DNA from: a phage
Assembly: GCA_038450185.1 (NCBI GenBank)
Contig: GCA_038450185.1_4765.1
Direction: 5' to 3' (one strand)
DNA: 64,000 nt
The position numbers and the translations under genes are program-made. Below the pieces are notes generated by a model, which saw nothing but the letters and a program-made list of their open reading frames with translations, ran no database searches and had not been told where the DNA came from. This document shows positions 132-64,000 of this stretch, piece by piece (the stretch's first letter is position 1; the number at the start of each line of letters is the position of its first letter).

Positions 132-615
132 ATTTTGCTAAATCATTGCAATATTTTAGTGCCTTAGTTTGAAATTCTGCGCTGTTAAGTTCTTCATAAC
201 GGTCATAATCACCGTTTAATGCTGCCTTTCTTGCTTCTTGCTCTATCTGTATGTCAGACATGATAATACAGCGATCCCGTGCTTTCATCTTCTCAAGTTG
301 TATAGACTCTTCTTTCTGCTTGCGCAATTCTTCTTGACGCTTCTTTTCTTCTTGTGCTTTCTCTTCCCGCGCTTCTTTGATTGCATCCTTGAACATCTGC
401 GTTTGTGGTGCTAAACCAACTTTAACGCGATCCACGTCTCGACGTTCCATTTTAGAAATAAAGCACGATTCGATCTGATCATCACTTGCATATGCTGCTT
501 TACATTCACGAAGCAAGAAAACCGGATCTGATTTAGCATTCATCATAGCTTCCATGTTGGCACAACCAGTAAGCATGAATGCAGCCGCAAGACCAATCAG
601 TTTAATCATTTTCAT
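130..615 (-). CDS. lipoprotein with K/E-rich coiled-coil region (161 aa)
   Basis: N-terminal signal peptide with lipobox LTGC; 4-nt start/stop overlap with upstream ORF. Confidence 0.55.
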   Translation of the reverse strand: MKMIKLIGLAAAFMLTGCANMEAMMNAKSDPVFLLRECKAAYASDDQIESCFISKMERRDVDRVKVGLAPQTQMFKDAIKEAREEKAQEEKKRQEELRKQKEESIQLEKMKARDRCIIMSDIQIEQEARKAALNGDYDRYEELNSAEFQTKALKYCNDLAK

Positions 616-1436
616 TTAGTCACCTCACCGAAAATTGTAAATTGTCTACGATTCTCATCGCCGAAAGATTCTACTACGTCGTTTACCTTGACGCAAGTCC
701 CGCGCGGTAAAATTACTTCACATTCGCAAGGGTTCCATGCAATTGACCCAACAACAAAACCTTTATGATCTTTTACGTCAATTACCCATGATACATTACA
801 AGAATGTTGCATCTTTCCGGTCATTGATTCATATCGATTCTCACAATAAAGGCTAGTGCTGTTTGATAGCCATCCTCCAAAGATGATCGGTGTCATGCTG
901 GTCGATACAAAGTTTTTAAAGGTAAACTCCTTATCTTCAATGATGCGCTCTATTGTCTGAATGTCAAGATGTTGACCGCGATAAAGAGTACCGTTTAACT
1001 TTTCGGTTTTATCCATGACGCAATCCATCAAATCGACAATCTCTGATATCTCATCGGTCATGTCTTCTTCCCCTAAGAGAGCACCATTTACCCATTCGTA
1101 TTGTTCAGATACATAATCACAGATTGCATTATATTCTGCTGGGGTTATGTTGTTATGTTTGTAATGTTTGAATACATTATCTCCAAAGTCTTCGGAGTGT
1201 ACTTCATACATCACATTAATGATTTTCTTGACAAATCCATAATCTTGTGTCTCACGCTCAAGGAAGCGGATAACCTTCACATAATCATCAAAGTTAATCT
1301 GATCGCTGATCATCTCAGTGATCATGTAACCATTAATCCCCTCAATGTCATATGTTTCAATATAATTGTCCATACGTTCCATCATTGATTCGCGTGATTC
1401 TTCTGAAAGACGAAAATCCTGTAATTGTTTGAACAT
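612..1436 (-). CDS. ADP-ribosyltransferase-like protein, paralog of the Alt catalytic region
   Basis: R-S-E-type motifs LYRGQ, FVSTS, CECEVILPRG parallel to those in the adjacent 683-aa Alt-like ORF. Confidence 0.55.
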   Translation of the reverse strand: MFKQLQDFRLSEESRESMMERMDNYIETYDIEGINGYMITEMISDQINFDDYVKVIRFLERETQDYGFVKKIINVMYEVHSEDFGDNVFKHYKHNNITPAEYNAICDYVSEQYEWVNGALLGEEDMTDEISEIVDLMDCVMDKTEKLNGTLYRGQHLDIQTIERIIEDKEFTFKNFVSTSMTPIIFGGWLSNSTSLYCENRYESMTGKMQHSCNVSWVIDVKDHKGFVVGSIAWNPCECEVILPRGTCVKVNDVVESFGDENRRQFTIFGEVTK

Positions 1437-1515: not shown

Positions 1516-3567
1516 TTACATTTTAAATTTATCTGGCATTGCGTCTACAGATACCAGATCAGCGATAAGCTGACGTAGAGTTGCCTTATCTGCTTTCTTA
1601 CGTTCGGTTTTAGCTTCGGTAATAAAGCTGGAGAAAGACAGGTCAGAAGCAGGTTTAACAACACCTTCACGGATGAATGCATCACCGTCCGCGATCATCT
1701 CGCCAGATTCTTGTAATGCTGCCAGTTCATTTTTGTTCATAATATGTGCCTCAATGTAATAAGTTTCTTGTGAATCCGTCGATGCCGTAGCACGAGTTAC
1801 CGTATCAAAGGATAACACAACACCGCGAGGAAGTAAAATCTCGCATTCTTTGTAAGCAAATGCTTTGTTACCTACTGGCAATACAGGGATGTTTTCCGCG
1901 CCAGCAATGGAGAAAGCAACATTAGCGCCACCTTCACCGCGAGAGCCAGCCATAGAATCAACACCAGCAACGGCACTAGCCACGTTTGCATTCCAGCCGC
2001 CAAAAATGTTAGGTGCAAGGGAAGTGCTCACATAGTTTTTAAAGTAAAACGCTTTTTGCTTACGTGCAGTTTCCCACATTTGAGACCGGAAGTCCATACC
2101 ACGATACAGAATAGTACCCGGATCAAGTTTAACACCATAGTTAGAGAAGGCATTATCCAGTGCATCGCACATCTTGACCAATTCTTCTGGATCTGCGATA
2201 CCATCAAATTCTTCCAGCTTACGGTCGGTTAGGAAGTTGTTCATATTGATGTATGCTGCATCCGCATATTCGCTCAACACAAAACCTTCCGCACCTGGCA
2301 GATCAAGATCAATATCTGCCATCATTTCACCCATGTTGCTAGCAATTGCTTCAAACATACCGGAAGCAACATTACGTAGGGCATCGGTTTTAATCTGGGT
2401 GATATGACTACGCAGCATTTCAGCTTTTACATCTGCTGGCATAGACTGGTCTACTCGATCCATTGCCAGGGCGGTGATCTTGTTTTCGAATACTTCCTCG
2501 CTCATGATTTCTTTTAAGCGTTTGATTGATGCTGCGATAACTTCCGCAGACAACGGATCATATTGATCCTGAACTTTTACCAGTTCGCTTACTGCGTATT
2601 TTGCATCGGCTTCGCTTTCAAAAATAGTACGCATGAAACCATAGCGAGTGATAATATCACTTGTCCAGTCATTCAGAGAACGGGCGGTTGAACGTTCTAA
2701 GGCTTGACGGTCAATCAGAGTATTAAACTGTTTCTTAGGTTCGGCTTCGGTGATATCTTCTTCCGGTTTAAGATTAATTTTTTCTGGATGATTCACATAG
2801 TCGCTGTTATAGGTCGCTTGAGTTTTCAGCATTTCTTCTTTAGTCAAACGAGATTTAGCCGCTACGCGTTGTTCCGCTTCCGCGTTTCGTTCTTCTTCTG
2901 ACACAAGACTAGCCGCATACGCCTCATCTTTAGTCAGAGATTCACCAGTAGCCTTAGATACCCAGCGATCACCTAAATCACTTTCTACTTTAGTGAACAA
3001 GGATTCATCAAGTTTAATCCCTTTAATCTTATCAATCGCCATCCCGCGACGCTTGACAACAACTAAAGCGATCTTTTTGCTGGTCATTACTTCCTGCTGG
3101 AATACTTCAAACTTCGGTGTACGACGCACCAAACGCTCTATAACGCGCTTAACCAGTTCGGTCTTACCTTTCATGCGGGATACGTTAAAACGGAACATAA
3201 CAGCGTCTAATTGCGCTTTACGGGCTGTTTCCATAACCACATCAAAAGCACTTGACATAACTGCAATCGGGTTATCGCCTAGACCATTTTTAAGCTGTAC
3301 AATACGACCGCTTTTGTTCATTTCGCACAGTACAACATGTGCGGTCTTGTCACCCATACGAATGATTTTAGGTGTTTTGTTGGTGAAGTTACAAAGACGG
3401 ACAATCACATCTTTATCGCGTGTCTGTACTGCAAAAAGCTGTTTAGGATTCTGCTTAGGCTTTAAGCACTGTACCGGAGCAATACTGCCAAAGTTTTCTT
3501 CCTCTTCCGTCAACAGCCATTTCTCGAAAGATTCAATCATTAGATCGTCGATTTCTAAGTTAAACAT
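1516..3567 (-). CDS. alt: ADP-ribosyltransferase Alt (virion internal protein)
   Basis: 683 aa, close to the recalled T4 Alt length (682 aa); motifs ILYRGMDFRS, YVSTS, KECEILLPRG; position next to the ligase region as in T4. Confidence 0.7.
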   Translation of the reverse strand: MFNLEIDDLMIESFEKWLLTEEEENFGSIAPVQCLKPKQNPKQLFAVQTRDKDVIVRLCNFTNKTPKIIRMGDKTAHVVLCEMNKSGRIVQLKNGLGDNPIAVMSSAFDVVMETARKAQLDAVMFRFNVSRMKGKTELVKRVIERLVRRTPKFEVFQQEVMTSKKIALVVVKRRGMAIDKIKGIKLDESLFTKVESDLGDRWVSKATGESLTKDEAYAASLVSEEERNAEAEQRVAAKSRLTKEEMLKTQATYNSDYVNHPEKINLKPEEDITEAEPKKQFNTLIDRQALERSTARSLNDWTSDIITRYGFMRTIFESEADAKYAVSELVKVQDQYDPLSAEVIAASIKRLKEIMSEEVFENKITALAMDRVDQSMPADVKAEMLRSHITQIKTDALRNVASGMFEAIASNMGEMMADIDLDLPGAEGFVLSEYADAAYINMNNFLTDRKLEEFDGIADPEELVKMCDALDNAFSNYGVKLDPGTILYRGMDFRSQMWETARKQKAFYFKNYVSTSLAPNIFGGWNANVASAVAGVDSMAGSRGEGGANVAFSIAGAENIPVLPVGNKAFAYKECEILLPRGVVLSFDTVTRATASTDSQETYYIEAHIMNKNELAALQESGEMIADGDAFIREGVVKPASDLSFSSFITEAKTERKKADKATLRQLIADLVSVDAMPDKFKM

Positions 3568-3920: not shown

Positions 3921-4475
3921 TTAGTTATTTTTTAATTGTTCATCTTGCAATAATGCAATCACATGCTGGCGATGTTCTTCCGATTGAGGTACACCGAAAA
4001 AGTTTGTTTTGTAGAAATACTCTAATCGGTCTTCTCGTGTGCTCTCTTCCATCATGATCGCGGGTAGTCCGAGATTTCGGAAACGTCGCTTTTCTGCTGG
4101 CGTAAAATCACTGTAATACAACATAGAATCATCATTACAAGCAATGCTAAACTCATCCTTCATAAAGGAGAATATTGCGTTTAAACGCTGTTTACCGTCC
4201 ACGATTTCGATCTCATAGCGAGAGCCATCATCAATCTTAGCCATTGCGATAGCACCAACCGGAAAATCATTAATCAGGTTTTCGATAAACATACGTTTGT
4301 TTTCGGTGTCCCATACTAAAGGACGCTGATAATCTGGGTTCATGTTGATATAGCCATCTTCTAACCATGCTTCGTAAACAGAGATGACAAAGTTTTTAGT
4401 ATTGGTATAGTAACGGCGTTTAGGCGTTAAACGGTTCATGTTATAGTCTCCTGAATGGATCATCACGTAAATCAA
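3921..4475 (-). CDS. DUF262 (ParB-like, GmrS-type) domain protein
   Basis: Motifs PDYQRPLVW and IVDGKQRLNA typical of the DUF262 N-terminal domain of GmrSD-type enzymes; alternative ATG at about 4439 right after the upstream stop. Confidence 0.6.
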   Translation of the reverse strand: MIYVMIHSGDYNMNRLTPKRRYYTNTKNFVISVYEAWLEDGYINMNPDYQRPLVWDTENKRMFIENLINDFPVGAIAMAKIDDGSRYEIEIVDGKQRLNAIFSFMKDEFSIACNDDSMLYYSDFTPAEKRRFRNLGLPAIMMEESTREDRLEYFYKTNFFGVPQSEEHRQHVIALLQDEQLKNN

Positions 4476-4773
4476 TATCTTTTAAGAACTCATCCCATGA
4501 ATGGCGGATATTGTTCTTAATTCTCCAGATGAGCGCAGGGATTGAACGCTCTCCCATCTGGAAGTATGGATCATATGATCCGTATGCCCAATATGCTACT
4601 ACAATTCCACAATCAGAGCAATAGTATTCTATTTCACTTGCTGGCGACCAAAGTCCATCAATATGATCGGTGATCTTGCTTTCGATGTTATGGCTATGGC
4701 AATCAGGGCAACGGATGCAATGACCTTGTTTGTCGTAATTTGACGTTAGAGAATACTTAAACAATCTCATCAT
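4441..4773 (-). CDS. Cys/His-rich zinc-binding protein (110 aa)
   Basis: CxxC..CxH and CxxC clusters; translationally coupled to both neighbours. Confidence 0.45.
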   Translation of the reverse strand: MMRLFKYSLTSNYDKQGHCIRCPDCHSHNIESKITDHIDGLWSPASEIEYYCSDCGIVVAYWAYGSYDPYFQMGERSIPALIWRIKNNIRHSWDEFLKDIDLRDDPFRRL

Positions 4774-5486
4774 AGATCCTTATTGGCTTCAAATACTGCC
4801 TTTGCGAATCCTCGCGGGGTAAGCGACCTGATAGTCTTTGTTCTGGTTCCTTTCCCGCCTAGCTTAGAATGCTGTTTACTGTACCCTTTATTAATCTGCA
4901 AAGGTTTCTTTTCTGGCATTATAAAGCCTTGTCCGGTCCATAAGCAAGTCTTTTTTGGGTACATATCACGGGCGGCAATATACTCAGGAAACGTAGGATG
5001 CTTATCATCTTCCGGCAAATAACCGCCATATTCCCACGGATGGAACATATAATCAGGCTTACGCCACATGCTAGAGATAACGCTTACAGGATTCTCTATC
5101 ATGTAGGGAACTCCTAGCCATTCACCCAAATAAGCGGTTATTTTAGCTGCCCGTACATCATGAACTTGAATCAATGGTCCTTGTCCTCGTTTCTTTCGTT
5201 CAAAGTGCGCAGCGCCACTAACAGCTAAATTGGTGCACGGTGGGAATGCAAAGATAATATCCGGTTTCCCCCATTCAAGGTCCATTGCTCTTTCCAGCCA
5301 ATTCAAATCAATCCATGTGTTTACATAAGTAATGTTTGGATGTTCAAATCGGGTATTATACTTTTTGTATGTGCCGTGATCGCCATCGTCAGCATTAAAG
5401 CAGATCACCTTATGACCTTCTTTAGCCCATTCTAGCCCCATTATCCCCGATCCGTCAAAGTTGCAGAATATTAATTTTTGTTTCAT
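4770..5486 (-). CDS. compact C5-cytosine-methyltransferase-like protein (238 aa)
   Basis: Motif I-like FCNFDGSGIMG, motif IV-like IFAFPPCTNLAVSGA (Pro-Cys), motif VI-like ENPVSV, possible motif IX RSLTPRGFAKA; too short to hold a normal target recognition domain. Confidence 0.5.
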   Translation of the reverse strand: MKQKLIFCNFDGSGIMGLEWAKEGHKVICFNADDGDHGTYKKYNTRFEHPNITYVNTWIDLNWLERAMDLEWGKPDIIFAFPPCTNLAVSGAAHFERKKRGQGPLIQVHDVRAAKITAYLGEWLGVPYMIENPVSVISSMWRKPDYMFHPWEYGGYLPEDDKHPTFPEYIAARDMYPKKTCLWTGQGFIMPEKKPLQINKGYSKQHSKLGGKGTRTKTIRSLTPRGFAKAVFEANKDL

Positions 5487-11184: not shown

Positions 11185-11661
11185 TTATTTTTCTTTATGC
11201 TCGCGCTCATACTTTTCGAAATAAAATTCTACTGGCTGGTCGTGGATTGACAGTAAGCCAAAGCGTTTAGCCGCTCGCAATCCCATATTGCGCTGAATGT
11301 ACTTCTGGAAGTTCTCGCGTATACACTTACGCCAGTATTCTAAGCCCATACAGCTTTTATAAAGATTGCATTGCACACATGCCGGATTCATGTTATCAAG
11401 TATATCATGCTCCGGTTTATGCATTCCTACAACCTTATACTTCCACGATCCATCATCATTACGGGCAATTCGTCCATTTTCATCATAGACTACCTTTGAG
11501 CGTCGCAATACTGGTTTGATGTGGTCTGCGTGCCAGCGATCCCCTAGTTCCTCGCCACAATAGGCACAACGTCCACCATATTTCATTTTCAGGATCTGGC
11601 GTTGCTCTTTCTTTGACAATTTTTTAGGTTTAGGGGCTTTCGCCCCTTCATTATCACACAT
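11185..11661 (-). CDS. HNH endonuclease
   Basis: CAYCGEEL...WHADHIKP HNH motif plus C-terminal CVQCN; overlaps the ligase 3' end by 8 nt. Confidence 0.55.
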   Translation of the reverse strand: MCDNEGAKAPKPKKLSKKEQRQILKMKYGGRCAYCGEELGDRWHADHIKPVLRRSKVVYDENGRIARNDDGSWKYKVVGMHKPEHDILDNMNPACVQCNLYKSCMGLEYWRKCIRENFQKYIQRNMGLRAAKRFGLLSIHDQPVEFYFEKYEREHKEK

Positions 11662-13153
11662 CGAATACCTCTTTTACTGTATTTGCAGTGGTCTTGTCGT
11701 AGCGAATACGTTTGATGATCGGGAGAAATAAAGAGAACTCCGGTTCATCTTCTTTACGTGATTTGCTGCGGATATACCCGTTGCATGTCATCTCAATGAC
11801 TTTTCCAATCAGGTTATGACGGTCAGCCCATAACATTTCTCGGTCAAGTTCATTTCTACGATCGAACGGAATCACACGTTCAATACCATCATCTTTTTCG
11901 GTTGTAGTGTCGGTCAATCCCGATCCGGTGTTGGTCATCATTCGTCCGCACGCACTACGGACAGTAAAACCGCCTACCTTATTAGGATCTTTACTATGCG
12001 GATATACATCAACAATTTCCGCGTCGAAGTCAATCACTTCTTTAAATTTAACCTGATCTTTACTGCGACGATCTTCAAATACACCATGCAGATTTTTAAG
12101 GATAATACCTTCTAATCCCATGTTTACATATCGATGATATACTTCGCGAGCTTCATCGATATTGTTAACTACAGTATTTTCGATTATCTGCACACGAGGA
12201 TCGTTAAGTTCTTCAACAATCTGTTTTAGTTCTTCGAATCGATCTTTATATTGCTTCGTTGCTTTCTCGTTTCCGTAATACACATCACGGTTGATAACAT
12301 CCCAGACAGTGTAAACAATACATTGGGCTTCTTCTTTTGGAATAGTTCCTTTCAGTGATTTGTTGAGGATACCATTTCCGGTCTGACGATCTGCAACAAC
12401 GGATTCTTTTACTGCTTCCGCTACTGGCGTTAATGGCATTTCCTCTTCTTCAAATATCCATGACAGAGTACCATCATAAACGCTTTCAACGAAGTTCTGC
12501 GCTGGTGTTTGCGAAAGGGTAGGCATATATACCAATTCGCCATCTAGAACAATTCCACGGCCTCGTAGACGCTCTAAAACAGCAAACAAATCATCCAGCC
12601 CCTGATAGGTATTACCTGAACGGGTATATATTGCTAGTGTTTCCCCGTCAATATCAGCCATACCACGAGCGCCATCACTTTTAAGTTGTGCATATGCCGG
12701 ATATTTGATATTAGCAATAGCCTTATCAGAATATGACGATGCAAGGTGGCATGGTTGCTGTGGGATCAGTTTCTTCCATACCTTGTTTGCAGTGGTAGCG
12801 GAACAACCGCATTCCAGATCACGATTCAGGACCATCATTGCAACTTTAGCATCATCTTCTGACAAGCAAGTCAGAGTATCGGTAACTAGTTGTAATGCAG
12901 CATTACCAGTTACTTGACGCGTGGCAAGTTTATTTTTAAAGACCTGTAATGCACCGGATAAAGACAATACAGACGAATAACGCGATGGTTTATCGTATTT
13001 CTTTACGCCAAACGTAACCTGTTTGCAATATGCCAGATAAAAGCATTCTTTCAGCGTTTCATTGCTTGCAGATTCTTTCAGGATCTTTTCTTTCAGCGAT
13101 GTTTTGTCTGTCGCTGCAAGCTGATTAATGATATTAAGAATTGACATTTTCAC
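11654..13153 (-). CDS. 30: ATP-dependent DNA ligase
   Basis: 499 aa; adenylation motif KSDGAR; position and size match T4 gp30. Confidence 0.85.
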   Translation of the reverse strand: MKMSILNIINQLAATDKTSLKEKILKESASNETLKECFYLAYCKQVTFGVKKYDKPSRYSSVLSLSGALQVFKNKLATRQVTGNAALQLVTDTLTCLSEDDAKVAMMVLNRDLECGCSATTANKVWKKLIPQQPCHLASSYSDKAIANIKYPAYAQLKSDGARGMADIDGETLAIYTRSGNTYQGLDDLFAVLERLRGRGIVLDGELVYMPTLSQTPAQNFVESVYDGTLSWIFEEEEMPLTPVAEAVKESVVADRQTGNGILNKSLKGTIPKEEAQCIVYTVWDVINRDVYYGNEKATKQYKDRFEELKQIVEELNDPRVQIIENTVVNNIDEAREVYHRYVNMGLEGIILKNLHGVFEDRRSKDQVKFKEVIDFDAEIVDVYPHSKDPNKVGGFTVRSACGRMMTNTGSGLTDTTTEKDDGIERVIPFDRRNELDREMLWADRHNLIGKVIEMTCNGYIRSKSRKEDEPEFSLFLPIIKRIRYDKTTANTVKEVFDV

Positions 13154-13613
13154 CTCGTTTTGTTAAACGTTCACGAATATCATTGAGGATACTACAAAAT
13201 TCCGATTCGGTCAATATGGTCTTTAACGGATCAGTTCCACCTATACTATGACGTAATTTCTTATTTCCTGTAGCAAGTAATGCTTTACAAAATTCTGGGT
13301 TATTCCGTGCCATCGTAACAAATGCCAGATGTACCAGTCTGTAATAATGCTCACTCATTCGATGAATCTGGCGACCCTGAAAATATAACATGTGATTCTC
13401 AATCTTTTCAGTTCTTCCGGTTCTTTTTGCTTTGCCACCGTGCATCAAAAAGATTTCTCTTTGTCTCTGAGGGTTCTTAAATCTTAGCCCCTGTAAAAAT
13501 CCTTCTGTGCTGTTAATATCGCAACCAAATAGACGGAATGGTCTTTTATTGAAATTACTCAATTCACCCGATGGATAAGGTCCACCCGCATAGATATCAA
13601 TTTCAGAAGTCAT
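13134..13613 (-). CDS. NADAR (YbiA-like) domain protein
   Basis: N-terminal GPYPSGELSNF...STEGFLQGLRF resembles the NADAR/DUF1768 signature; 159 aa. Confidence 0.5.
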   Translation of the reverse strand: MTSEIDIYAGGPYPSGELSNFNKRPFRLFGCDINSTEGFLQGLRFKNPQRQREIFLMHGGKAKRTGRTEKIENHMLYFQGRQIHRMSEHYYRLVHLAFVTMARNNPEFCKALLATGNKKLRHSIGGTDPLKTILTESEFCSILNDIRERLTKRGENVNS

Positions 13614-13821
13614 TGAAACTAATCTCGCTAATCAGAGAGAACGGATCATAATCGTCATTAGGAATATCGATAGTAATCGAATGAGGATTTACCCATACAC
13701 CAAACTGGTCTTCTTCGGTGAATACTTCGGTATGGATTTCGTGGATGTTTACATTCATAGTTTTCATAATAAAATTCCTTAATAATCAATAACTTACAAA
13801 ATCATATAGCCAAAATATAGG

Positions 13822-13845
13822 CGGGATTATTTCCCGCCGTTTAAA
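13822..13845 (-). terminator. hairpin downstream of gene 31
   Basis: GGCGGGA-loop-TCCCGCC stem-loop. Confidence 0.4.
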
Positions 13846-13849
13846 ATCA

Positions 13850-14173
13850 TTAACCGTAAACTACCACAATATTCTGTTTGTGCGTTACAGTCCATTTCAG
13901 GTCGATCTCTTCTTCCTTCTTAACGCCGTTAATAACGTCTGGATGAGGAACTTTATTCATCTTTCCATGTGGCAGTAGAACAGTTTTACCCAGCAACTCT
14001 TTATCTACCGTTTCACCAATATCAATAATCTTACCTACCAGCGGAATCTCGCCCATAGTGCGCTTTTGCTCAATAATGATCCCCATAGAGCTTTTTACTT
14101 CGGTCCCTGCGCTTTCTGCTTTAGCTTCGATAATTACATAATCACCAAGTGCTTTAGGAGTTTTAACGGTCAT
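13850..14173 (-). CDS. 31: co-chaperonin (GroES-like) for capsid folding
   Basis: 107 aa GroES-like ORF with GDYVII motif; position between cd and ligase as in T4. Confidence 0.6.
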   Translation of the reverse strand: MTVKTPKALGDYVIIEAKAESAGTEVKSSMGIIIEQKRTMGEIPLVGKIIDIGETVDKELLGKTVLLPHGKMNKVPHPDVINGVKKEEEIDLKWTVTHKQNIVVVYG

Positions 14174-14214
14174 AATTTTATTACCTCTTCAAATCAATAC
14201 AGTTTAATGATGAA

Positions 14215-14535
14215 TTATTTATAAATTTCGACGATCTGCGCTGGAGTCAGCCCGTCTACATTAATCAGACTATCAAGCCCAAAACTACGGAAACCTTCAA
14301 CTGCAATTTCATATACTGGCAAAGATGTTTCTGATTCTTTATGCGGTTTTTCAACATTCGGAACTAACCACTTTTCGTATGTTTCAAACGGCATCAGTGC
14401 CGGATCTCGCGTGGCGATCATCTCACGGACAGTACCATCTTTCTTAGTAAACTGTAAAGAGTGAGTACCTACAGCAAGCATTTTCTTTAGTGCTTCACGA
14501 AGTGCGATATTATCAATTTGTTCAGTCATTATCAA
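14215..14535 (-). CDS. hypothetical protein (106 aa)
   Basis: ORF overlapping the cd stop. Confidence 0.45.
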   Translation of the reverse strand: MIMTEQIDNIALREALKKMLAVGTHSLQFTKKDGTVREMIATRDPALMPFETYEKWLVPNVEKPHKESETSLPVYEIAVEGFRSFGLDSLINVDGLTPAQIVEIYK

Positions 14536-15028
14536 TACCCTTCAAATCAGTCAATAATGCTTTTGGAATACGCGTAACCGTAATGTCGGCTTTATCCAAA
14601 ATATCAGCCCAATCACGCCCACCATTTCGGTCGTATGTATCGCAATAGTATAGATGTTTAATACCACTGTTTGCAATTGCTTTAGCGCAATCTGGACACG
14701 GTGAAGCAGTACACCACATACTAGCGCCTTCAATCGATACACCGCTACGGGCAGCAAACAAAATAGCATTTAATTCAGCGTGGATCTCGTTTTTCTGTGA
14801 CCATGCACTATGTTCTGGTCGTTTTTCTGGGATCATTTTACCGTCACCATCCAGCCAACCGCTTTTATGTGCATGACAGCTACAATTTACTTGCCCTGCT
14901 GGAGTGCCATTAAATCCAGTAGAAATGATTCGCCCGTCTTTTTCAATTAGTGCGCCTACCTTCCACGAAACACATTTAGAGTTCTTTGCGATTAGATAGG
15001 CGATCTGCATGTAAGTTTGTGACAACAT
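14522..15028 (-). CDS. cd: dCMP deaminase
   Basis: Zinc-binding motifs HAELNAI and CPDCAKAI. Confidence 0.85.
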   Translation of the reverse strand: MLSQTYMQIAYLIAKNSKCVSWKVGALIEKDGRIISTGFNGTPAGQVNCSCHAHKSGWLDGDGKMIPEKRPEHSAWSQKNEIHAELNAILFAARSGVSIEGASMWCTASPCPDCAKAIANSGIKHLYYCDTYDRNGGRDWADILDKADITVTRIPKALLTDLKGIDND

Positions 15029-15049
15029 AATATAATCCTCACATATTAA

Positions 15050-15253
15050 TTAACCGTATACGCGAAAGTATTCTACTGATCCGTCGCTATATTGTTTTAC
15101 ATTGAATGTATTCACGCCATGATCATTGCTCATAATGACATACACACTGCGACGCTCATCACTAAACGGGTTAACTGGTGCTGGTTCAATTTCAACATTA
15201 AAACCACGTTTAGCAAGTGCTTCGCCTAATTTCTTGAGTTTATCGGTAAACAT
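15050..15253 (-). CDS. hypothetical small protein (67 aa)
   Basis: ORF between pseT and cd. Confidence 0.4.
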   Translation of the reverse strand: MFTDKLKKLGEALAKRGFNVEIEPAPVNPFSDERRSVYVIMSNDHGVNTFNVKQYSDGSVEYFRVYG

Positions 15254-16152
15254 TAAAAGTCTCCGTAGTTAACCTGAAAACATTCTACACCAATTGAGCG
15301 GTACATGTCAACCACTTGATCACGGTCATCTACTGCCAAAACAACATGATATCGCGGTGCAATTTCAGAGAAGAAAATCTCTTTCTTTACTTCATGATCA
15401 GGACGACGATCATTAGTTTCACGTTGAAAGTGATCACTAGGTTCAATACCCTGTTCACGCAACCATTGCAGAGTATCTTCTTCGCAAACATCCTCACGCC
15501 CTGAGCATGTAATGATACGATAGCCATTATCACGATACAGTTTAAGCATTTCGACCACTTGCTGACGTGGTTTATCTTCTTTGACCTTTGTCCAGTCAAA
15601 CGGATGACGACCGCCCTTATCCGCTAATGTTCCATCAATATCAAAGATCACTGCCTTTGGCAGCATAGTATTCGGTTTGTATACTTCTTGACCCATATAT
15701 TCCTGCATCAGATAAAATTGGTTGCGCAAATGAGAAAGTGGAATTGCTTTCTCGCCGCGATAGAAATTACGTTTCTTTAGTGTCTCAAATGATTCATTGA
15801 ACACTTGTTCAGTATACACCGCGTTAAATTCTTTTGCAAGTTCTTTGTAGAATACACGATGTTTTTCTTTCAGGTTAGTATCAGAGATAATGATACTTAA
15901 TCCGCGTGATAGAGTCTCACGAGCAATCATTCTCTGAATAGACTCTACCAGCTTTTCCTTTTCCTTAGTATATTTGTATTTCAAAAGTGAGTCAACACCA
16001 AACAACATAAGACGAAGGTCATCACGATTCACATTACGATAATTACTAAACCTTTTACATGTTTCCATAGCCCATGTAGTTTTACCGGACCCAGAACAAC
16101 CAACGGTTAAAATCACTTCACATTTCGGCATTATTTCTCCTTCGGTTTGCAC
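15253..16152 (-). CDS. pseT: polynucleotide 5'-kinase/3'-phosphatase
   Basis: Walker A GCSGSGKTT and phosphatase motif FDIDGTLA; 299 aa. Confidence 0.85.
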   Translation of the reverse strand: MQTEGEIMPKCEVILTVGCSGSGKTTWAMETCKRFSNYRNVNRDDLRLMLFGVDSLLKYKYTKEKEKLVESIQRMIARETLSRGLSIIISDTNLKEKHRVFYKELAKEFNAVYTEQVFNESFETLKKRNFYRGEKAIPLSHLRNQFYLMQEYMGQEVYKPNTMLPKAVIFDIDGTLADKGGRHPFDWTKVKEDKPRQQVVEMLKLYRDNGYRIITCSGREDVCEEDTLQWLREQGIEPSDHFQRETNDRRPDHEVKKEIFFSEIAPRYHVVLAVDDRDQVVDMYRSIGVECFQVNYGDF

Positions 16153-60929: not shown

Positions 60930-61433
60930 TTAAATTAAAGAAAATTTGTAAATCTCTATCAGATCGCCATTACACGCGTAAACTTCCTCGATCTCATCAA
61001 GGATCATGGTCGTCCCTGTCTTGTATATGCACTCGCGCTCATCTGCCAACATAGCATACAAAGACAGTCGAGTAGTCGGATTGTCATACTCTTTAGACAC
61101 CACTCGGTCAATAGCATGTTCGTAATAATTCATGCAAGGCTTGGTAGGTTTTATTGCAATAATCTTTCCTGTTGCATAAACATCGGTTGCAAAGTCCTCT
61201 GCTGTTGATTGCAGTGGCGTAAAGCTCATAGGACGCTCTACAACGAAAGAATCGCCTACAATTAAGGTATCCAGCTTACGGCCTTCTCTTTTGCTCACAC
61301 CGCGATACAAGGCTTCATGATGCACTAACCGCTCAGTCTTTTCAATCAATCCATTAAGGATCGACATATCGATATTTTCTTTAGAGTTCATCACCTCATC
61401 AATGATGTTAAGTTCTTCTGGTGTAAATTGCAT
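60930..61433 (-). CDS. ADP-ribosyltransferase, ModA/ModB-like
   Basis: ALYRGVS, SFTPLQSTAED and ADERECIYKTG motifs parallel to the Alt-like proteins; 167 aa. Confidence 0.5.
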   Translation of the reverse strand: MQFTPEELNIIDEVMNSKENIDMSILNGLIEKTERLVHHEALYRGVSKREGRKLDTLIVGDSFVVERPMSFTPLQSTAEDFATDVYATGKIIAIKPTKPCMNYYEHAIDRVVSKEYDNPTTRLSLYAMLADERECIYKTGTTMILDEIEEVYACNGDLIEIYKFSLI

Positions 61434-62035: not shown

Positions 62036-63064
62036 TTAAAATTTACAATATTTCATAAACCGCATTTTAGCCATCAGACCTTGTACGGTGTTCTCTTTGA
62101 TATATTCCATGATCTGGTCGCGTGTAGCGCCCTCGTCCTGAATCATGGCGTTAACGTCTTTAGAATGCCACGGGCAGCGATCCCACAAAACAATCTTTTC
62201 CCCTGCATTGATAAACTTTTCCAGTCGGTGCATTGTATCGGCAGACCGTGGTTCCGCATCAAGTACAAACACTCGCTGATCAGGGAAAGGAATTTCATCT
62301 AATCCCAAAGTACCGCCAGTAATTGCACACCCGTTATCAATAAACAATGAATCGATCGGACCTTCTAAGAAATACACAGGTTTACTCGGATCGGCGCGTT
62401 CAAGACCATAGACCTTACTCGCTAACTCATGAGTTTTAATCGTCATATATTTGGTCTTTCCGTAATCCTTTCTCAATGCTCGCCCCTGAATGGATTCTAT
62501 CTTGTTCTCGCGGTTAAAGATAGGAATCACTAAACGCGGTTCAGGTTGTGGATTCTTGAAAGTATCAGCCTTAATGTGATTTGCTACCTTTTGCCATTCT
62601 CTCGTGAAATACAGAAGATCCCATTTATCGTGAGGAATACAGCGATCACTGACATACTTTATTATAGGATGATTAGCCGGAAGAGTATCTAATCTCTCGC
62701 AGAAAGGCAATGTTTGCACTTTCTTAATCTCCGGCTTTTCTACCTTTTTCAGTGGCTTGAACGTGGTGTTCTTGTGGTCGCCTTGTTCCTTCCGTCTCTC
62801 CATAAGCCATTCCCTGAATAGGTCCGGCTTATACTGTTTGAGAAATTCACCTAACGGCTGATTGTAGTTACAGTTGAAACAACCACAACGCAAACTATCT
62901 TTATAGGTATAGATACGGAATCGCGCTTGAGTATGATTTTTCTTTGAGTCACCGCAGATCGGACAACTACAGACCAGCGTAAATGAGCTAGTATGCAACC
63001 GTTTAAAATTTCGTTCGCCGTATATGGCTTTTTCCGCTATTTCATAATCTGCGTAGTAAATCAT
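62036..63064 (-). CDS. 61: DNA primase
   Basis: 342 aa, same as T4 gp61; zinc ribbon CSCPICGDS..CGCFNC; Toprim-like YFLEGPIDSLFIDNG. Confidence 0.75.
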   Translation of the reverse strand: MIYYADYEIAEKAIYGERNFKRLHTSSFTLVCSCPICGDSKKNHTQARFRIYTYKDSLRCGCFNCNYNQPLGEFLKQYKPDLFREWLMERRKEQGDHKNTTFKPLKKVEKPEIKKVQTLPFCERLDTLPANHPIIKYVSDRCIPHDKWDLLYFTREWQKVANHIKADTFKNPQPEPRLVIPIFNRENKIESIQGRALRKDYGKTKYMTIKTHELASKVYGLERADPSKPVYFLEGPIDSLFIDNGCAITGGTLGLDEIPFPDQRVFVLDAEPRSADTMHRLEKFINAGEKIVLWDRCPWHSKDVNAMIQDEGATRDQIMEYIKENTVQGLMAKMRFMKYCKF

Positions 63065-63073
63065 AATAACCTC

Positions 63074-63277
63074 TTATAGCTCAAATTTCATGAAAGTTCC
63101 TACACTTTCATTTTCATTCTCTCCGTTTTCATCTAAGCCAAATTTGTAGACACTACCATCTGGCGATGTGTAAGAGAATACACGAAAACGGCCTACCGAA
63201 TCAAGTTCTGTAAATTCATATTCTTTTCCGGCTTCAAAAAGTGCATATGTGCTTTTAAGACATTTCATCGTAATCAT
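63074..63277 (-). CDS. hypothetical small protein (67 aa)
   Basis: ORF upstream of primase. Confidence 0.35.
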   Translation of the reverse strand: MITMKCLKSTYALFEAGKEYEFTELDSVGRFRVFSYTSPDGSVYKFGLDENGENENESVGTFMKFEL

Positions 63278-63597
63278 TTAAGCGCCACCGACAACAGAAT
63301 GAGAACTACACCAACATACATTGTGATCTCGGATAACTTTTCTGTTTTTGTTTTGTGTCCAGATAATCCGAAAACAACAACACCGATAATAGCGGACAGC
63401 AAGCCAACGATAAACATGATGATACTAAGCACCGTCTTTCTCCTTTTTGCGTTTTTCTTTACCCGCTACACTAGGTCCACGATTGGTAATAGATCCGCTC
63501 GTTTCACCTGCTGCGATCTTCTCAGGATTGCCGCCAGCATCGCCAGCGGTCATATCTTCTTTGAGTTTATTTTCTTCAACAAACTGTTTAAAGCCAA

Positions 63598-63975
63598 TCA
63601 TAGAATAATCTCTTTCAGTAAGTCAACAATCTGGTCTTTCGTCAGTTTATCCTGATTCTCTACAATCTTGATAACACAAGCGTTAACATCTTTTCGAGTA
63701 ACGCGGGAGATCGTTTTAATACGATGAAACGGTTCGTAGAAATATACTGCTTCATTATAGAGCGCAGCAATTTTTCGACGCATTTGATCTTTATCCGACA
63801 AGAAAACAAGTGCTGTTTTATGACCTTCTACACCCGCCACGTTATATAGTTCAGCAACACCCCAGCGACCTTCCGGTTCAATCATTCCGGCGTGTTTACC
63901 GTCGATAAAAATAAGAATATCTCCGTTGAATGCGGTTTTGAATGCTACATCTTCCGGCGTAATCATATTTTTCAT
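63598..63975 (-). CDS. hypothetical protein (125 aa)
   Basis: ATG-initiated ORF near window end. Confidence 0.4.
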   Translation of the reverse strand: MKNMITPEDVAFKTAFNGDILIFIDGKHAGMIEPEGRWGVAELYNVAGVEGHKTALVFLSDKDQMRRKIAALYNEAVYFYEPFHRIKTISRVTRKDVNACVIKIVENQDKLTKDQIVDLLKEIIL

Positions 63976-64000
63976 AATATAGTCTCCTTAGAGTTTCATT

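What the first reader, a model, noticed from the sequence alone, without database searches (positions are those of the whole stretch)
13134..13613. NADAR-like protein next to DNA ligase in a genome carrying three ADP-ribosyltransferases
The 159-aa ORF has a NADAR/YbiA-like signature (GPYPSGELSNF…STEGFLQGLRF). NADAR proteins have been reported to hydrolyse ADP-ribose from guanine modified by DarT-type toxins, so a phage copy is a plausible counter-defence gene against DarTG-like systems. Alternatively it could tune the phage's own ADP-ribosylation by Alt, the Alt-like paralog and the Mod-like enzyme. Its start overlaps the ligase stop and a roughly 56-codon ORF overlaps its own start, suggesting coupled expression.
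Basis: partly seen in the sequence, partly recalled or inferred. Interest (0 to 1): 0.55.

Follow-up and report, generated by a model that had tools for sequence, protein, structure and literature searches.

The report
Phage NADAR enzyme that de-ADP-ribosylates DNA

Summary
The 159-aa ORF at 13134-13613 (minus strand) is real. It is the Krischvirus (RB49-like) ortholog of T4 gp30.3. It matches Pfam Phage_30_3 at 130 bits (cutoff 36), is 38% identical to T4 gp30.3, and lies between gene 31 and the DNA ligase gene 30.

T4 gp30.3 was renamed AdfN in 2025. It is an orphan NADAR-family glycohydrolase that removes DarT1-added ADP-ribose from guanine in phage DNA.

The generic NADAR Pfam model scores below threshold here (16.7 bits against 35.1). 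Other tests place the protein in the superfamily:
- Profile-profile comparison with E. coli YbiA gives 95% probability.

The catalytic Glu (E37), the phage-clade His (H122) and the C-terminal helix are present. The diphosphate-binding Lys is Arg (R44), a minority variant that co-occurs with loss of a conserved Trp.

All 60 Krischvirus records keep the full gene under purifying selection. No AdfA homolog was found.

One detail is reversed: the gene's stop end overlaps the ligase start.

Verdict: already known, correctly interpreted, and untested in this genus. Low interest.

The parts
13134..13613 (-). Gene 30.3 / adfN ortholog: 159-aa phage-clade NADAR, a predicted guanine-ADP-ribose glycohydrolase
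13503..13505 (-). Codon GAA for E37, the counterpart of T4 AdfN E36, PnNADAR E43 and E. coli C7 NADAR E88 (contacts the distal ribose)
   Evidence: Alignments. Glu in 157/161 family domains. Mutagenesis of the T4 and C7 residues in PMC11825919 and PMC11543638.
13482..13484 (-). Codon AGA for R44, at the position of T4 K43, PnNADAR K50 and C7 K95 (diphosphate contact). A natural Lys-to-Arg variant.
   Evidence: Alignments. Lys in 148 and Arg in 10 of 161 family domains. Arg co-occurs with loss of Trp at column 71, which is I71 here. C7 K95R is active in vitro but gives no rescue in vivo.
13248..13250 (-). Codon CAT for H122, the last-strand His that defines phage NADARs. YbiA has Glu and DarG1 has Asp at this position.
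   Evidence: His in 158/161 family domains. Aligned to the YbiA Glu in hhalign. Literature definition.
13137..13208 (-). Codons for residues 136-159, whose residues 136-158 form the C-terminal helix. This is the element truncated in the DarTG1-sensitive phage RB69. Here it is intact and 7 residues longer than in T4.
   Evidence: AF2 secondary structure, helix 136-158. Alignment reaches the T4 C-terminus. Truncation data in PMC11825919.
13603..13767 (-). Upstream 54-aa ORF (31.-1 in RB49), very acidic, unknown function. Its stop overlaps the 30.3 start by 11 nt.
   Evidence: phrog_15277, E=3.7e-42. Same overlap kept in a relative with 69% aa identity, L006. Named 31.-1 in AJ550428.
11654..13147 (-). 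Gene 30, ATP-dependent DNA ligase. Its ATG at 13147 and its GAGGTG ribosome-binding site lie inside the 3' end of 30.3 (14-nt overlap).
   Evidence: PF01068 and phrog_114. Sequence. Annotated start in relatives.
13820..13838 (-). Terminator-like GC hairpin followed by a T run, between gene 31 and ORF 31.-1
   Evidence: This is a consensus match only; the number of such sites in the region does not exceed the shuffled controls.
1516..3567 (-). Context: Alt ADP-ribosyltransferase
   Evidence: phrog_802, E=9.5e-180; PF03496.
612..1436 (-). Context: Alt-like 274-aa ADP-ribosyltransferase paralog
   Evidence: phrog_15144, E=4e-198; PF03496, E=4e-16.
60930..61433 (-). Context: Mod-like ADP-ribosyltransferase
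   Evidence: phrog_832 'RNA polymerase ADP-ribosylase', E=1e-20.

Best explanation
The ORF is the Krischvirus ortholog of T4 gene 30.3 (adfN). It is a single-domain enzyme of the phage clade of the NADAR (YbiA-fold) superfamily. It most likely binds the ADP-ribose moiety attached to N2 of guanine in phage DNA and hydrolyses the N-glycosidic bond, releasing ADP-ribose and restoring an unmodified base. E37 would contact the distal ribose, R44 the diphosphate, and H122 would take the place of the Glu or Asp of other NADARs. By erasing the marks that the DarT1 toxin of a DarTG1 system places on replicating phage DNA, the enzyme lets replication proceed in DarTG1-bearing hosts. It acts as an 'orphan antitoxin' and does not bind the toxin. 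It is probably transcribed with the flanking ORF 31.-1 and the ligase gene, whose reading frames overlap it at both ends.

Shown here: family membership, synteny, fold, conservation of the catalytic positions, purifying selection and the overlapping gene arrangement.

Taken from the literature on the T4 ortholog: the enzymatic activity, guanine specificity and anti-DarTG1 phenotype.

Inferred: that the Krischvirus allele, which carries Arg44, does the same.
For: Family and orthology:
- PF08010 at 130 bits; phrog_652.
- 38% identity over the full length to T4 gp30.3.
- Same position between gene 31 and gene 30 as in T4.
- RB49, JSE and Phi1 records already name the gene 30.3.

NADAR fold:
- hhalign to YbiA: 95.3%, E=2.4e-8 over 140 columns, with the E-x3-Q-x2-K motif and the last-strand position aligned.
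- Profile against PDB sequences: YbiA at E=0.0012.
- AF2 pLDDT 96.7.

Conservation and selection:
- 36 of the 38 columns conserved at >=80% in the family are kept, including E37, Q41 and H122.
- The C-terminal helix is intact.
- dN/dS is 0.03-0.2, and all 60 Krischvirus records hold a full-length gene.

Function of the T4 ortholog:
- Necessary and sufficient for DarTG1 resistance; removes ADP-ribose from DNA in vitro; E36A and K43A impair it (PMC11825919).
- Guanine-ADPr hydrolysis, with no activity on thymine-ADPr or cytosine-ADPr (PMC11125620, PMC12945103).
- Conditionally essential under DarTG1 in a transposon screen.
Against: - No Krischvirus allele has been tested, and no paper links Krischvirus to DarTG.
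- Identity to T4 AdfN is only 38%.
- The diphosphate-contacting Lys (T4 K43) is Arg here. In the E. coli C7 DarG1 NADAR, K95R kept in vitro hydrolysis but lost in vivo rescue.
- A Trp conserved in 84% of family members is Phe78, and another common Trp is Ile71.
- T4 AdfN works fully only during T-even infection, for unknown reasons. Activity may therefore depend on a partner, and T4 genes 30.1 and 30.2 have no homolog in this window.
- The generic NADAR Pfam model is below threshold.
Confidence: 0.8

Rival explanations
1. It reverses or tunes ADP-ribosylation made by the phage's own Alt, Alt-like and Mod enzymes on host proteins (arginine-ADP-ribose) or their RNAylation products.
For: Three ART genes lie in the same 64-kb window. 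[quoted passage not shown] Guanine N2 and the arginine guanidinium are chemically related N-linked acceptors (my inference).
Against: In T4, loss of 30.3 has no fitness effect on E. coli K-12 without DarTG1, and the gene is specifically required with DarTG1. All substrates demonstrated for T4 NADAR are guanine in DNA or RNA. None of the papers I read reports activity on proteins. Alt is about 8 kb away from this gene and Mod about 47 kb, so they are not in one operon.
Confidence: 0.04
2. It degrades soluble ADP-ribose-derived molecules, such as immune second messengers or RNA-repair by-products, rather than DNA adducts.
For: Proposed for phage NADARs on contextual grounds (PMC9503650). The family also occurs in bacteria beside nucleoside-salvage genes and NUDIX genes, and fused to phosphoesterase or hydrolase domains.
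Against: The T4 ortholog acts directly on ADP-ribosylated DNA in vitro and its phenotype is DarTG1-specific. No signalling-based defence has been linked to it.
Confidence: 0.06
3. It is an active guanine-ADP-ribose hydrolase, but its relevant target in this phage is not DarT1-modified DNA. The target would be guanine-ADP-ribosylated RNA, or DNA modified by other guanine-specific ARTs (ScARP/pierisin-like or YarT-like toxins). The R44/I71 pocket variant could reflect such a shifted specificity.
For: All NADAR families remove G-ADPr from RNA as well as from DNA. Other guanine-directed toxin-antitoxin pairs exist (YarT-YbiA). R44 with loss of W71 marks a minority subclade.
Against: This rival partly overlaps the best explanation, since the chemistry is the same. 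T4 AdfN itself lacks W71 (it has Ala) and is anti-DarTG1. The host range is E. coli, where DarTG1 occurs.
Confidence: 0.08
4. It is a housekeeping N-glycosidase of the YbiA type, detoxifying riboflavin-pathway intermediates.
For: E. coli YbiA is the best structural and profile match.
Against: The last-strand Glu that defines the YbiA family is His here. The gene belongs to a phage-dominated family whose T4 member is an anti-defence enzyme.
Confidence: 0.02

Closest known systems
T4 gp30.3 = AdfN (anti-DarT factor NADAR), Johannesman et al. 2025, PMC11825919
   Same: Same Pfam family (PF08010) and PHROG (652). Same genomic slot between gene 31 and gene 30. Same size (159 against 152 aa). Same single-domain NADAR fold, catalytic Glu, last-strand His and complete C-terminal helix.
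   Different: Only 38% identical. It has Arg44 where T4 has Lys43 and Phe78 where T4 has Trp79, and it is 7 residues longer at the C-terminus. It abuts the ligase gene directly, because no homologs of T4 30.2 and 30.1 are present. The upstream neighbour (31.-1) is unrelated to T4 30.4. Untested experimentally.
DarG1 antitoxins of DarTG1 systems (BC4488-type NADARs; E. coli C7, Geobacter lovleyi 8bat)
   Different: His instead of Asp in the last strand. Lacks the N-terminal helix and beta extensions of DarG1. Not encoded next to a DarT. Phage-borne 'orphan'.
E. coli YbiA (2b3w) and Phytophthora NADAR-ADP-ribose complex (8bau)
   Different: About 20% identity. These proteins have Glu in the last strand. 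YbiA does not protect against DarT1 in vivo, and its physiological role differs.
AdfN-Bas32 and AdfN-Bas60 (NADARs of T5-like and Vequintavirinae phages)
   Same: Phage-encoded NADARs with anti-DarTG1 activity.
   Different: According to PMC11825919 they belong to other NADAR branches, were acquired independently, and work without phage infection. The present gene belongs to the gp30.3 branch.
T4 Tk.4 = AdfM (macrodomain, anti-DarTG2) and AdfA (gp61.2, DarT1 binder)
   Same: Functional analogues: phage factors against DarT toxins.
   Different: Unrelated folds and mechanisms. No homolog of either was found in this window. No AdfA homolog was found in any Krischvirus record.

Membership tests
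Phage NADAR / gp30.3 / AdfN family (Pfam PF08010 Phage_30_3) | Scores above the curated threshold of the family profile | tested here: met
   130.1 bits against a cutoff of 36, E=6.5e-38, covering profile positions 2-138 of 138. phrog_652, E=2.5e-45.
Phage NADAR / gp30.3 / AdfN family (Pfam PF08010 Phage_30_3) | Histidine in the last beta-strand, where the YbiA family has Glu and the DarG1/BC4488 family has Asp | tested here: met
   H122. His in 158/161 family domains. Aligned to the YbiA Glu in hhalign. Feature defined in PMC11543638 and PMC11125620.
Phage NADAR / gp30.3 / AdfN family (Pfam PF08010 Phage_30_3) | Catalytic Glu (T4 E36) in the E-x3-Q-x2-K helix | tested here: met
   E37 and Q41 are present.
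Phage NADAR / gp30.3 / AdfN family (Pfam PF08010 Phage_30_3) | Basic diphosphate-contacting residue (T4 K43). It is Lys in 92% and Arg in 6% of family representatives. | tested here: inconclusive
   The residue is R44, basic but not Lys. C7 NADAR K95R is active in vitro but does not rescue in vivo. R44 co-occurs with the Trp71-to-Ile change, which suggests a compensated pocket.
Phage NADAR / gp30.3 / AdfN family (Pfam PF08010 Phage_30_3) | Complete C-terminal helix, whose loss in RB69 reduces activity | tested here: met
   Helix 136-158 in the pLDDT-96.7 model. The alignment reaches the last residue of T4 gp30.3.
Phage NADAR / gp30.3 / AdfN family (Pfam PF08010 Phage_30_3) | Syntenic position in the gene 31 to gene 30 early region of T4-like genomes | tested here: met
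   The order pseT-cd-(WYL_2)-31-31.-1-30.3-30 in the window, against 31...30.4-30.3-30.2-30.1-30 in T4.
Phage NADAR / gp30.3 / AdfN family (Pfam PF08010 Phage_30_3) | Hydrolyses guanine-linked ADP-ribose on DNA and protects the phage from DarTG1 | not testable with these tools
   Shown only for the T4 protein. No data exist for any Krischvirus.
NADAR superfamily (YbiA fold) | Matches the generic NADAR profile PF08719 above its gathering score | tested here: not met
   16.7 bits against 35.1, E=0.0089. 19 of 68 family members reach E<=0.01, best 1.1e-6. The protein is captured instead by the sister model PF08010.
NADAR superfamily (YbiA fold) | YbiA fold: helical core flanked by small beta-hairpins, with the active-site motif in register | tested here: met
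DarG1 antitoxin (BC4488-type NADAR of DarTG1 operons) | Asp in the last strand and a gene adjacent to a DarT1 toxin gene | tested here: not met
   H122 in place of Asp. The neighbours are ORF 31.-1 and the DNA ligase, with no DarT.
YbiA family proper | Glu in the last strand | tested here: not met
   His122 aligns to the YbiA Glu.

The most novel reading that the evidence does not exclude
The Krischvirus enzyme belongs to a minority subclade of phage NADARs. In this subclade the diphosphate-binding Lys is Arg and a nearby conserved Trp is replaced by Ile with a one-residue deletion (the R44/I71 pocket). This remodelled pocket could confer a different substrate range or efficiency from T4 AdfN. 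It could also remove the dependence on the unknown T-even factor. In this lineage the gene may be the only anti-DarT1 device, since no AdfA homolog was detected, and it is translationally coupled to the DNA ligase gene.
Probability: 0.12. Interest if true: 0.35.

Novelty: already known. Interest (0 to 1): 0.15.

Why it matters
The result mainly matters for annotation. Fifty-one of the 60 Krischvirus records in the phage collection label this gene 'hypothetical protein' or a generic 'phage protein'. Seven already call it 30.3, and two records carry no annotation. The gene can now be named adfN-like NADAR ADP-ribosylglycohydrolase.

It predicts that RB49-group phages, which are used in phage-therapy collections, resist DarTG1-bearing E. 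coli through this gene. It also predicts that this is their only known anti-DarT1 factor.

The natural Arg44 variant offers a ready-made test of the Lys/Arg question raised by the C7 K95R mutant.

None of this changes current understanding of the system.

Tried and rejected
- Single-sequence AlphaFold gave an unusable model (pLDDT 46.9). It was replaced by a run on a 68-sequence alignment.
- Single-sequence phmmer against PDB gave a D-alanine carrier-protein ligase (7vhv) at E=3.7e-4. I reject this as chance. It covers a different fold region, it was not recovered by the family profile, and it did not appear in either fold search.
- The promoter and terminator scan of 11500-15300 found no more sites than shuffled controls. 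No sigma-70-type, MotA-box or TATAAATA late promoter is evident by eye in the 82-nt gap upstream of ORF 31.-1. I therefore make no claim about transcription units beyond the overlapping reading frames.
- tblastn of T4 30.1, 30.2, 30.4-30.7, 61.2 (AdfA), sp and tk.4 (AdfM) against the window gave only 30.3 and 61.1.
- A literature search for Krischvirus together with DarTG found nothing.
- I considered filing the protein as a DarG1 antitoxin or as a YbiA-family protein. I rejected both because the defining last-strand residue is His and no toxin gene is adjacent.
- I considered that the R44-I71 co-occurrence proves compensation. I rejected this as proof, because the Fisher test is not corrected for phylogeny and seven of the ten Arg sequences look like one clade.
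Full report
**Observation**

Both quoted motifs are present, GPYPSGELSNF at residues 11-21 and STEGFLQGLRF at residues 35-45.

All genes in this neighbourhood run on the minus strand. In transcription order they are:
- pseT (15253-16152)
- a 67-aa ORF
- cd, dCMP deaminase (14522-15028)
- a WYL_2-domain ORF (14215-14535)
- gene 31, co-chaperonin (13850-14173; phrog_931)
- a 54-aa ORF (13603-13767)
- the ORF in question
- the ATP-dependent DNA ligase gene 30 (11654-13153; PF01068, phrog_114)
- an HNH endonuclease gene (11185-11661)

The minus-strand sequence shows that the 54-aa ORF ends at TGA 13605-13603. That is 11 nt inside the ORF, whose ATG is at 13613-13611. The ORF's TAA (13136-13134) lies 14 nt inside the ligase gene. 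The ligase ATG at 13147 is preceded by GAGGTG at a good Shine-Dalgarno distance. Close relatives annotate this same ligase start.

The window does carry three ADP-ribosyltransferase genes:
- Alt, 1516-3567.
- A 274-aa Alt paralog, 612-1436.
- A Mod-like 167-aa ORF, 60930-61433.

**Source of the window**

The window is 97-99% identical to Krischvirus genomes, the RB49 group of Straboviridae. All 60 Krischvirus records in the phage collection contain the full 480-nt gene at 96-99.8% identity. Fifty-one call it 'hypothetical protein' or a generic 'phage protein', and two carry no annotation. The RB49, JSE and Phi1 records already name it 30.3. RB49 fragment AJ550428 names the upstream 54-aa ORF 31.-1.

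**Family**

- The protein matches Pfam PF08010 'Bacteriophage protein GP30.3' at 130.1 bits (cutoff 36, E=6.5e-38) over the whole profile.
- It matches phrog_652 at E=2.5e-45.
- tblastn finds homologs in 1510 phage records, mostly T4-like phages of Escherichia, Klebsiella, Aeromonas, Acinetobacter and Vibrio.
- An exhaustive HMMER scan finds 975 cluster representatives at E<=1e-3, but only two at E<=1e-30. The Krischvirus protein is therefore a fairly isolated branch, with its nearest relative outside the group at about 47-50% identity.
- It is 38% identical to T4 gp30.3 over the full length (BLASTP E=1e-28).
- T4 gp30.3 sits in the same 31-to-30 region, though T4 has 30.2 and 30.1 between it and the ligase. 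Those two genes have no homolog in the window.

**What the family does (literature)**

T4 gene 30.3 was renamed adfN by Johannesman et al. (Nat Commun 2025, PMC11825919). The evidence is as follows.
- Chimeric-phage mapping showed that 30.3 confers DarTG1 resistance.
- RB69, which has a frameshift removing the last 15 residues, is sensitive.
- Ectopic adfN-T4 rescues RB69, and E36A, K43A and the truncation impair that rescue.
- The purified protein removes ADP-ribose from DarT1-modified DNA.
- It does not bind DarT1.
- Oddly, it works fully only during T-even infection.
[quoted passage not shown] They are distinguished by a His in the last strand, where YbiA has Glu and DarG1 has Asp.
- The same papers show that the T4 enzyme hydrolyses guanine-ADPr on DNA and RNA but not thymine- or cytosine-ADPr (PMC11543638, PMC11125620, PMC12945103).
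- A T4 transposon screen found 30.3/adfN dispensable on K-12 but required in the presence of DarTG1 (bioRxiv 10.1101/2025.11.20.689424).

**My tests of NADAR membership**

The generic NADAR model PF08719 scores only 16.7 bits against a cutoff of 35.1. Deeper tests are positive:
- A profile of 68 family members finds YbiA (2b3w) at E=0.0012 and the Phytophthora NADAR (8bau) next, with SmEgfLqslKf aligned to TSEHYFQAQKF and SSEQYFMKRKQ.
- hhalign of that profile against E. coli YbiA gives 95.3% probability, E=2.4e-8 over 140 columns, and places H122 on the YbiA last-strand Glu.
- AlphaFold on the alignment gives pLDDT 96.7 and pTM 0.90.
- These are the same three structures reported for AdfN-T4.

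**Active-site and integrity check**

In an alignment of 161 family domains, 38 columns are conserved at >=80%. The window protein keeps the consensus in 36 of them, including E37 (T4 E36), Q41, Q51, R85, H122, T135 and E138. T4 AdfN itself departs in six.

There are two departures here. One is F78 for Trp. The other is R44 for the Lys that corresponds to T4 K43, PnNADAR K50 and C7 K95, the diphosphate contact.

Arg occurs at this position in 10 of 161 representatives, including the 69%-identical relative P0002. Arg co-occurs with replacement of a second common Trp by Ile plus a one-residue deletion: 9 of 10 Arg sequences lack that Trp, against 24 of 148 Lys sequences (Fisher p=2.5e-6, not corrected for phylogeny).

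Schuller et al. found that C7 NADAR K95R retains hydrolysis in vitro but no longer rescues DarT1 toxicity. The natural Arg is thus the one real uncertainty about activity. The apparent co-substitution and strong purifying selection argue that the enzyme is functional.

Selection and conservation data:
- dN/dS is 0.03-0.2 against four Krischvirus genomes.
- dN/dS is 0.12 against the divergent metagenomic relative L006.
- L006 keeps the identical arrangement of 31.-1, 30.3 and ligase overlaps.
- The C-terminal helix, whose loss cripples the RB69 allele, is complete (helix 136-158).

**Context relevant to mechanism**

- No homolog of AdfA (T4 gp61.2) is present in the window. The 61.1 homolog sits at 63434-63601 with nothing AdfA-like around it.
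- tblastn with AdfA finds 487 phage records, all >=60% identical, and none a Krischvirus.
- No Tk.4/AdfM homolog is in the window.
- The 30.3 product would therefore be the only recognisable anti-DarT1 factor of this phage, though only 64 kb of about 165 kb was examined for AdfM.
- The overlapping frames make translational coupling with 31.-1 and the ligase plausible but unproven.
- A terminator-like hairpin follows gene 31 (13838-13820), and no convincing promoter was found.

**Rivals**

*Self-tuning of Alt/Mod.* This has only co-occurrence in its favour, and the T4 genetics contradict it.

*A role on soluble ADPr derivatives.* This was proposed before the biochemistry was done (PMC9503650). 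The direct DNA assays make it unlikely for the T4-type proteins. Bacterial family members next to nucleoside-salvage or NUDIX genes and fused architectures show that the wider family may have other jobs.

*A shifted target.* The target could be RNA guanine-ADPr or other guanine-specific toxins. This remains possible and is not exclusive of the main explanation.

**Verdict**

It is also already established knowledge: this is the ortholog of a biochemically and genetically characterised gene, in a curated Pfam family, in the syntenic position.

What is new is modest:
- The genus-wide annotation gap.
- The Arg44/Ile71 pocket variant.
- The direct coupling to the ligase gene.
- The absence of AdfA.

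Novelty: already known. Interest 0.15.

Noticed in passing
window 13603-13767 (-): ORF 31.-1 encodes a 54-aa, very acidic protein: 11 Asp/Glu, 1 Lys and 3 His. It belongs to phrog_15277 (unknown function). It overlaps the 30.3 start by 11 nt, and the pair is conserved in a relative with 69% identity (L006). It could be a partner of the NADAR or an unrelated small early inhibitor.
   Followed up: partly
window residues R44 and I71 of the ORF (codons 13482-13484 and 13401-13403): Within the gp30.3 family, Arg at the Lys43 position co-occurs with loss of a conserved Trp (Ile plus a 1-residue deletion). 9 of 10 Arg sequences lack the Trp, against 24 of 148 Lys sequences. This may mark a subclade with a remodelled diphosphate pocket. 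The test is not corrected for phylogeny.
   Followed up: partly
window 62036-64000; phage collection: No AdfA (T4 gp61.2) homolog lies next to the 61/61.1 homologs, and none was found in any Krischvirus record. No Tk.4/AdfM, 30.1 or 30.2 homolog is in the window.
   Followed up: yes
window 11185-11661 (-): An HNH endonuclease gene (phrog_2118, PF01844) starts 8 nt inside the 3' end of the ligase gene. The neighbouring spacing varies among Krischvirus genomes; MIZ6, for example, has an extra ORF. This is consistent with a mobile homing endonuclease.
   Followed up: no
window 3921-4475 (-) and 4770-5486 (-): A 184-aa ORF with a GmrSD_N (DUF262) domain (E=6e-20) and a 238-aa ORF matching a PHROG annotated as DNA methyltransferase lie just downstream of (3' to) alt on the minus strand. 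A phage-borne half of a type IV restriction enzyme is unusual.
   Followed up: no
proteins P0021, P0038, P0059, P0078, P0070, P0052, P0019, P0017: The gp30.3 domain occurs in several larger proteins. One recurrent form is about 470 aa, with an N-terminal part of about 310 aa that has no Pfam match. Others are fusions to a calcineurin-like phosphoesterase, an alpha/beta hydrolase or BspA-type LRRs. Tandem duplications also occur.
   Followed up: partly
L013 4001-4462; L015 1089-1691 and 4001-4669; L011 4001-4513: Family members exist outside T4-like phages. One is in a Clostridia MAG directly after a deoC-PNP-phosphopentomutase-cdd-pyrimidine phosphorylase cluster. Two copies are in a Falkowbacteria genome near NUDIX and RNase T genes. 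One is in a 42-kb phage-like contig.
   Followed up: partly
L002 2953-3789 (T4 gene 30.2): T4 gp30.2, the gene immediately downstream of adfN in T4 and absent here, begins MKPTILTDIDGV. This resembles HAD-phosphatase motif I. I did not test it. It might be relevant to the unexplained T-even dependence of AdfN-T4.
   Followed up: no
window 14215-14535 (-): A WYL_2 (Sm-like SH3) domain ORF between cd and gene 31 is annotated 'tail fiber protein' in several relatives. This is probably a propagated misannotation.
   Followed up: no
Single-sequence phmmer gave a nominally significant hit (E=3.7e-4) to the C-terminal domain of D-alanine carrier-protein ligase DltA. NCBIfam also showed a weak DltA hit. 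Profile and fold searches did not reproduce it, so I treated it as chance.
   Followed up: yes
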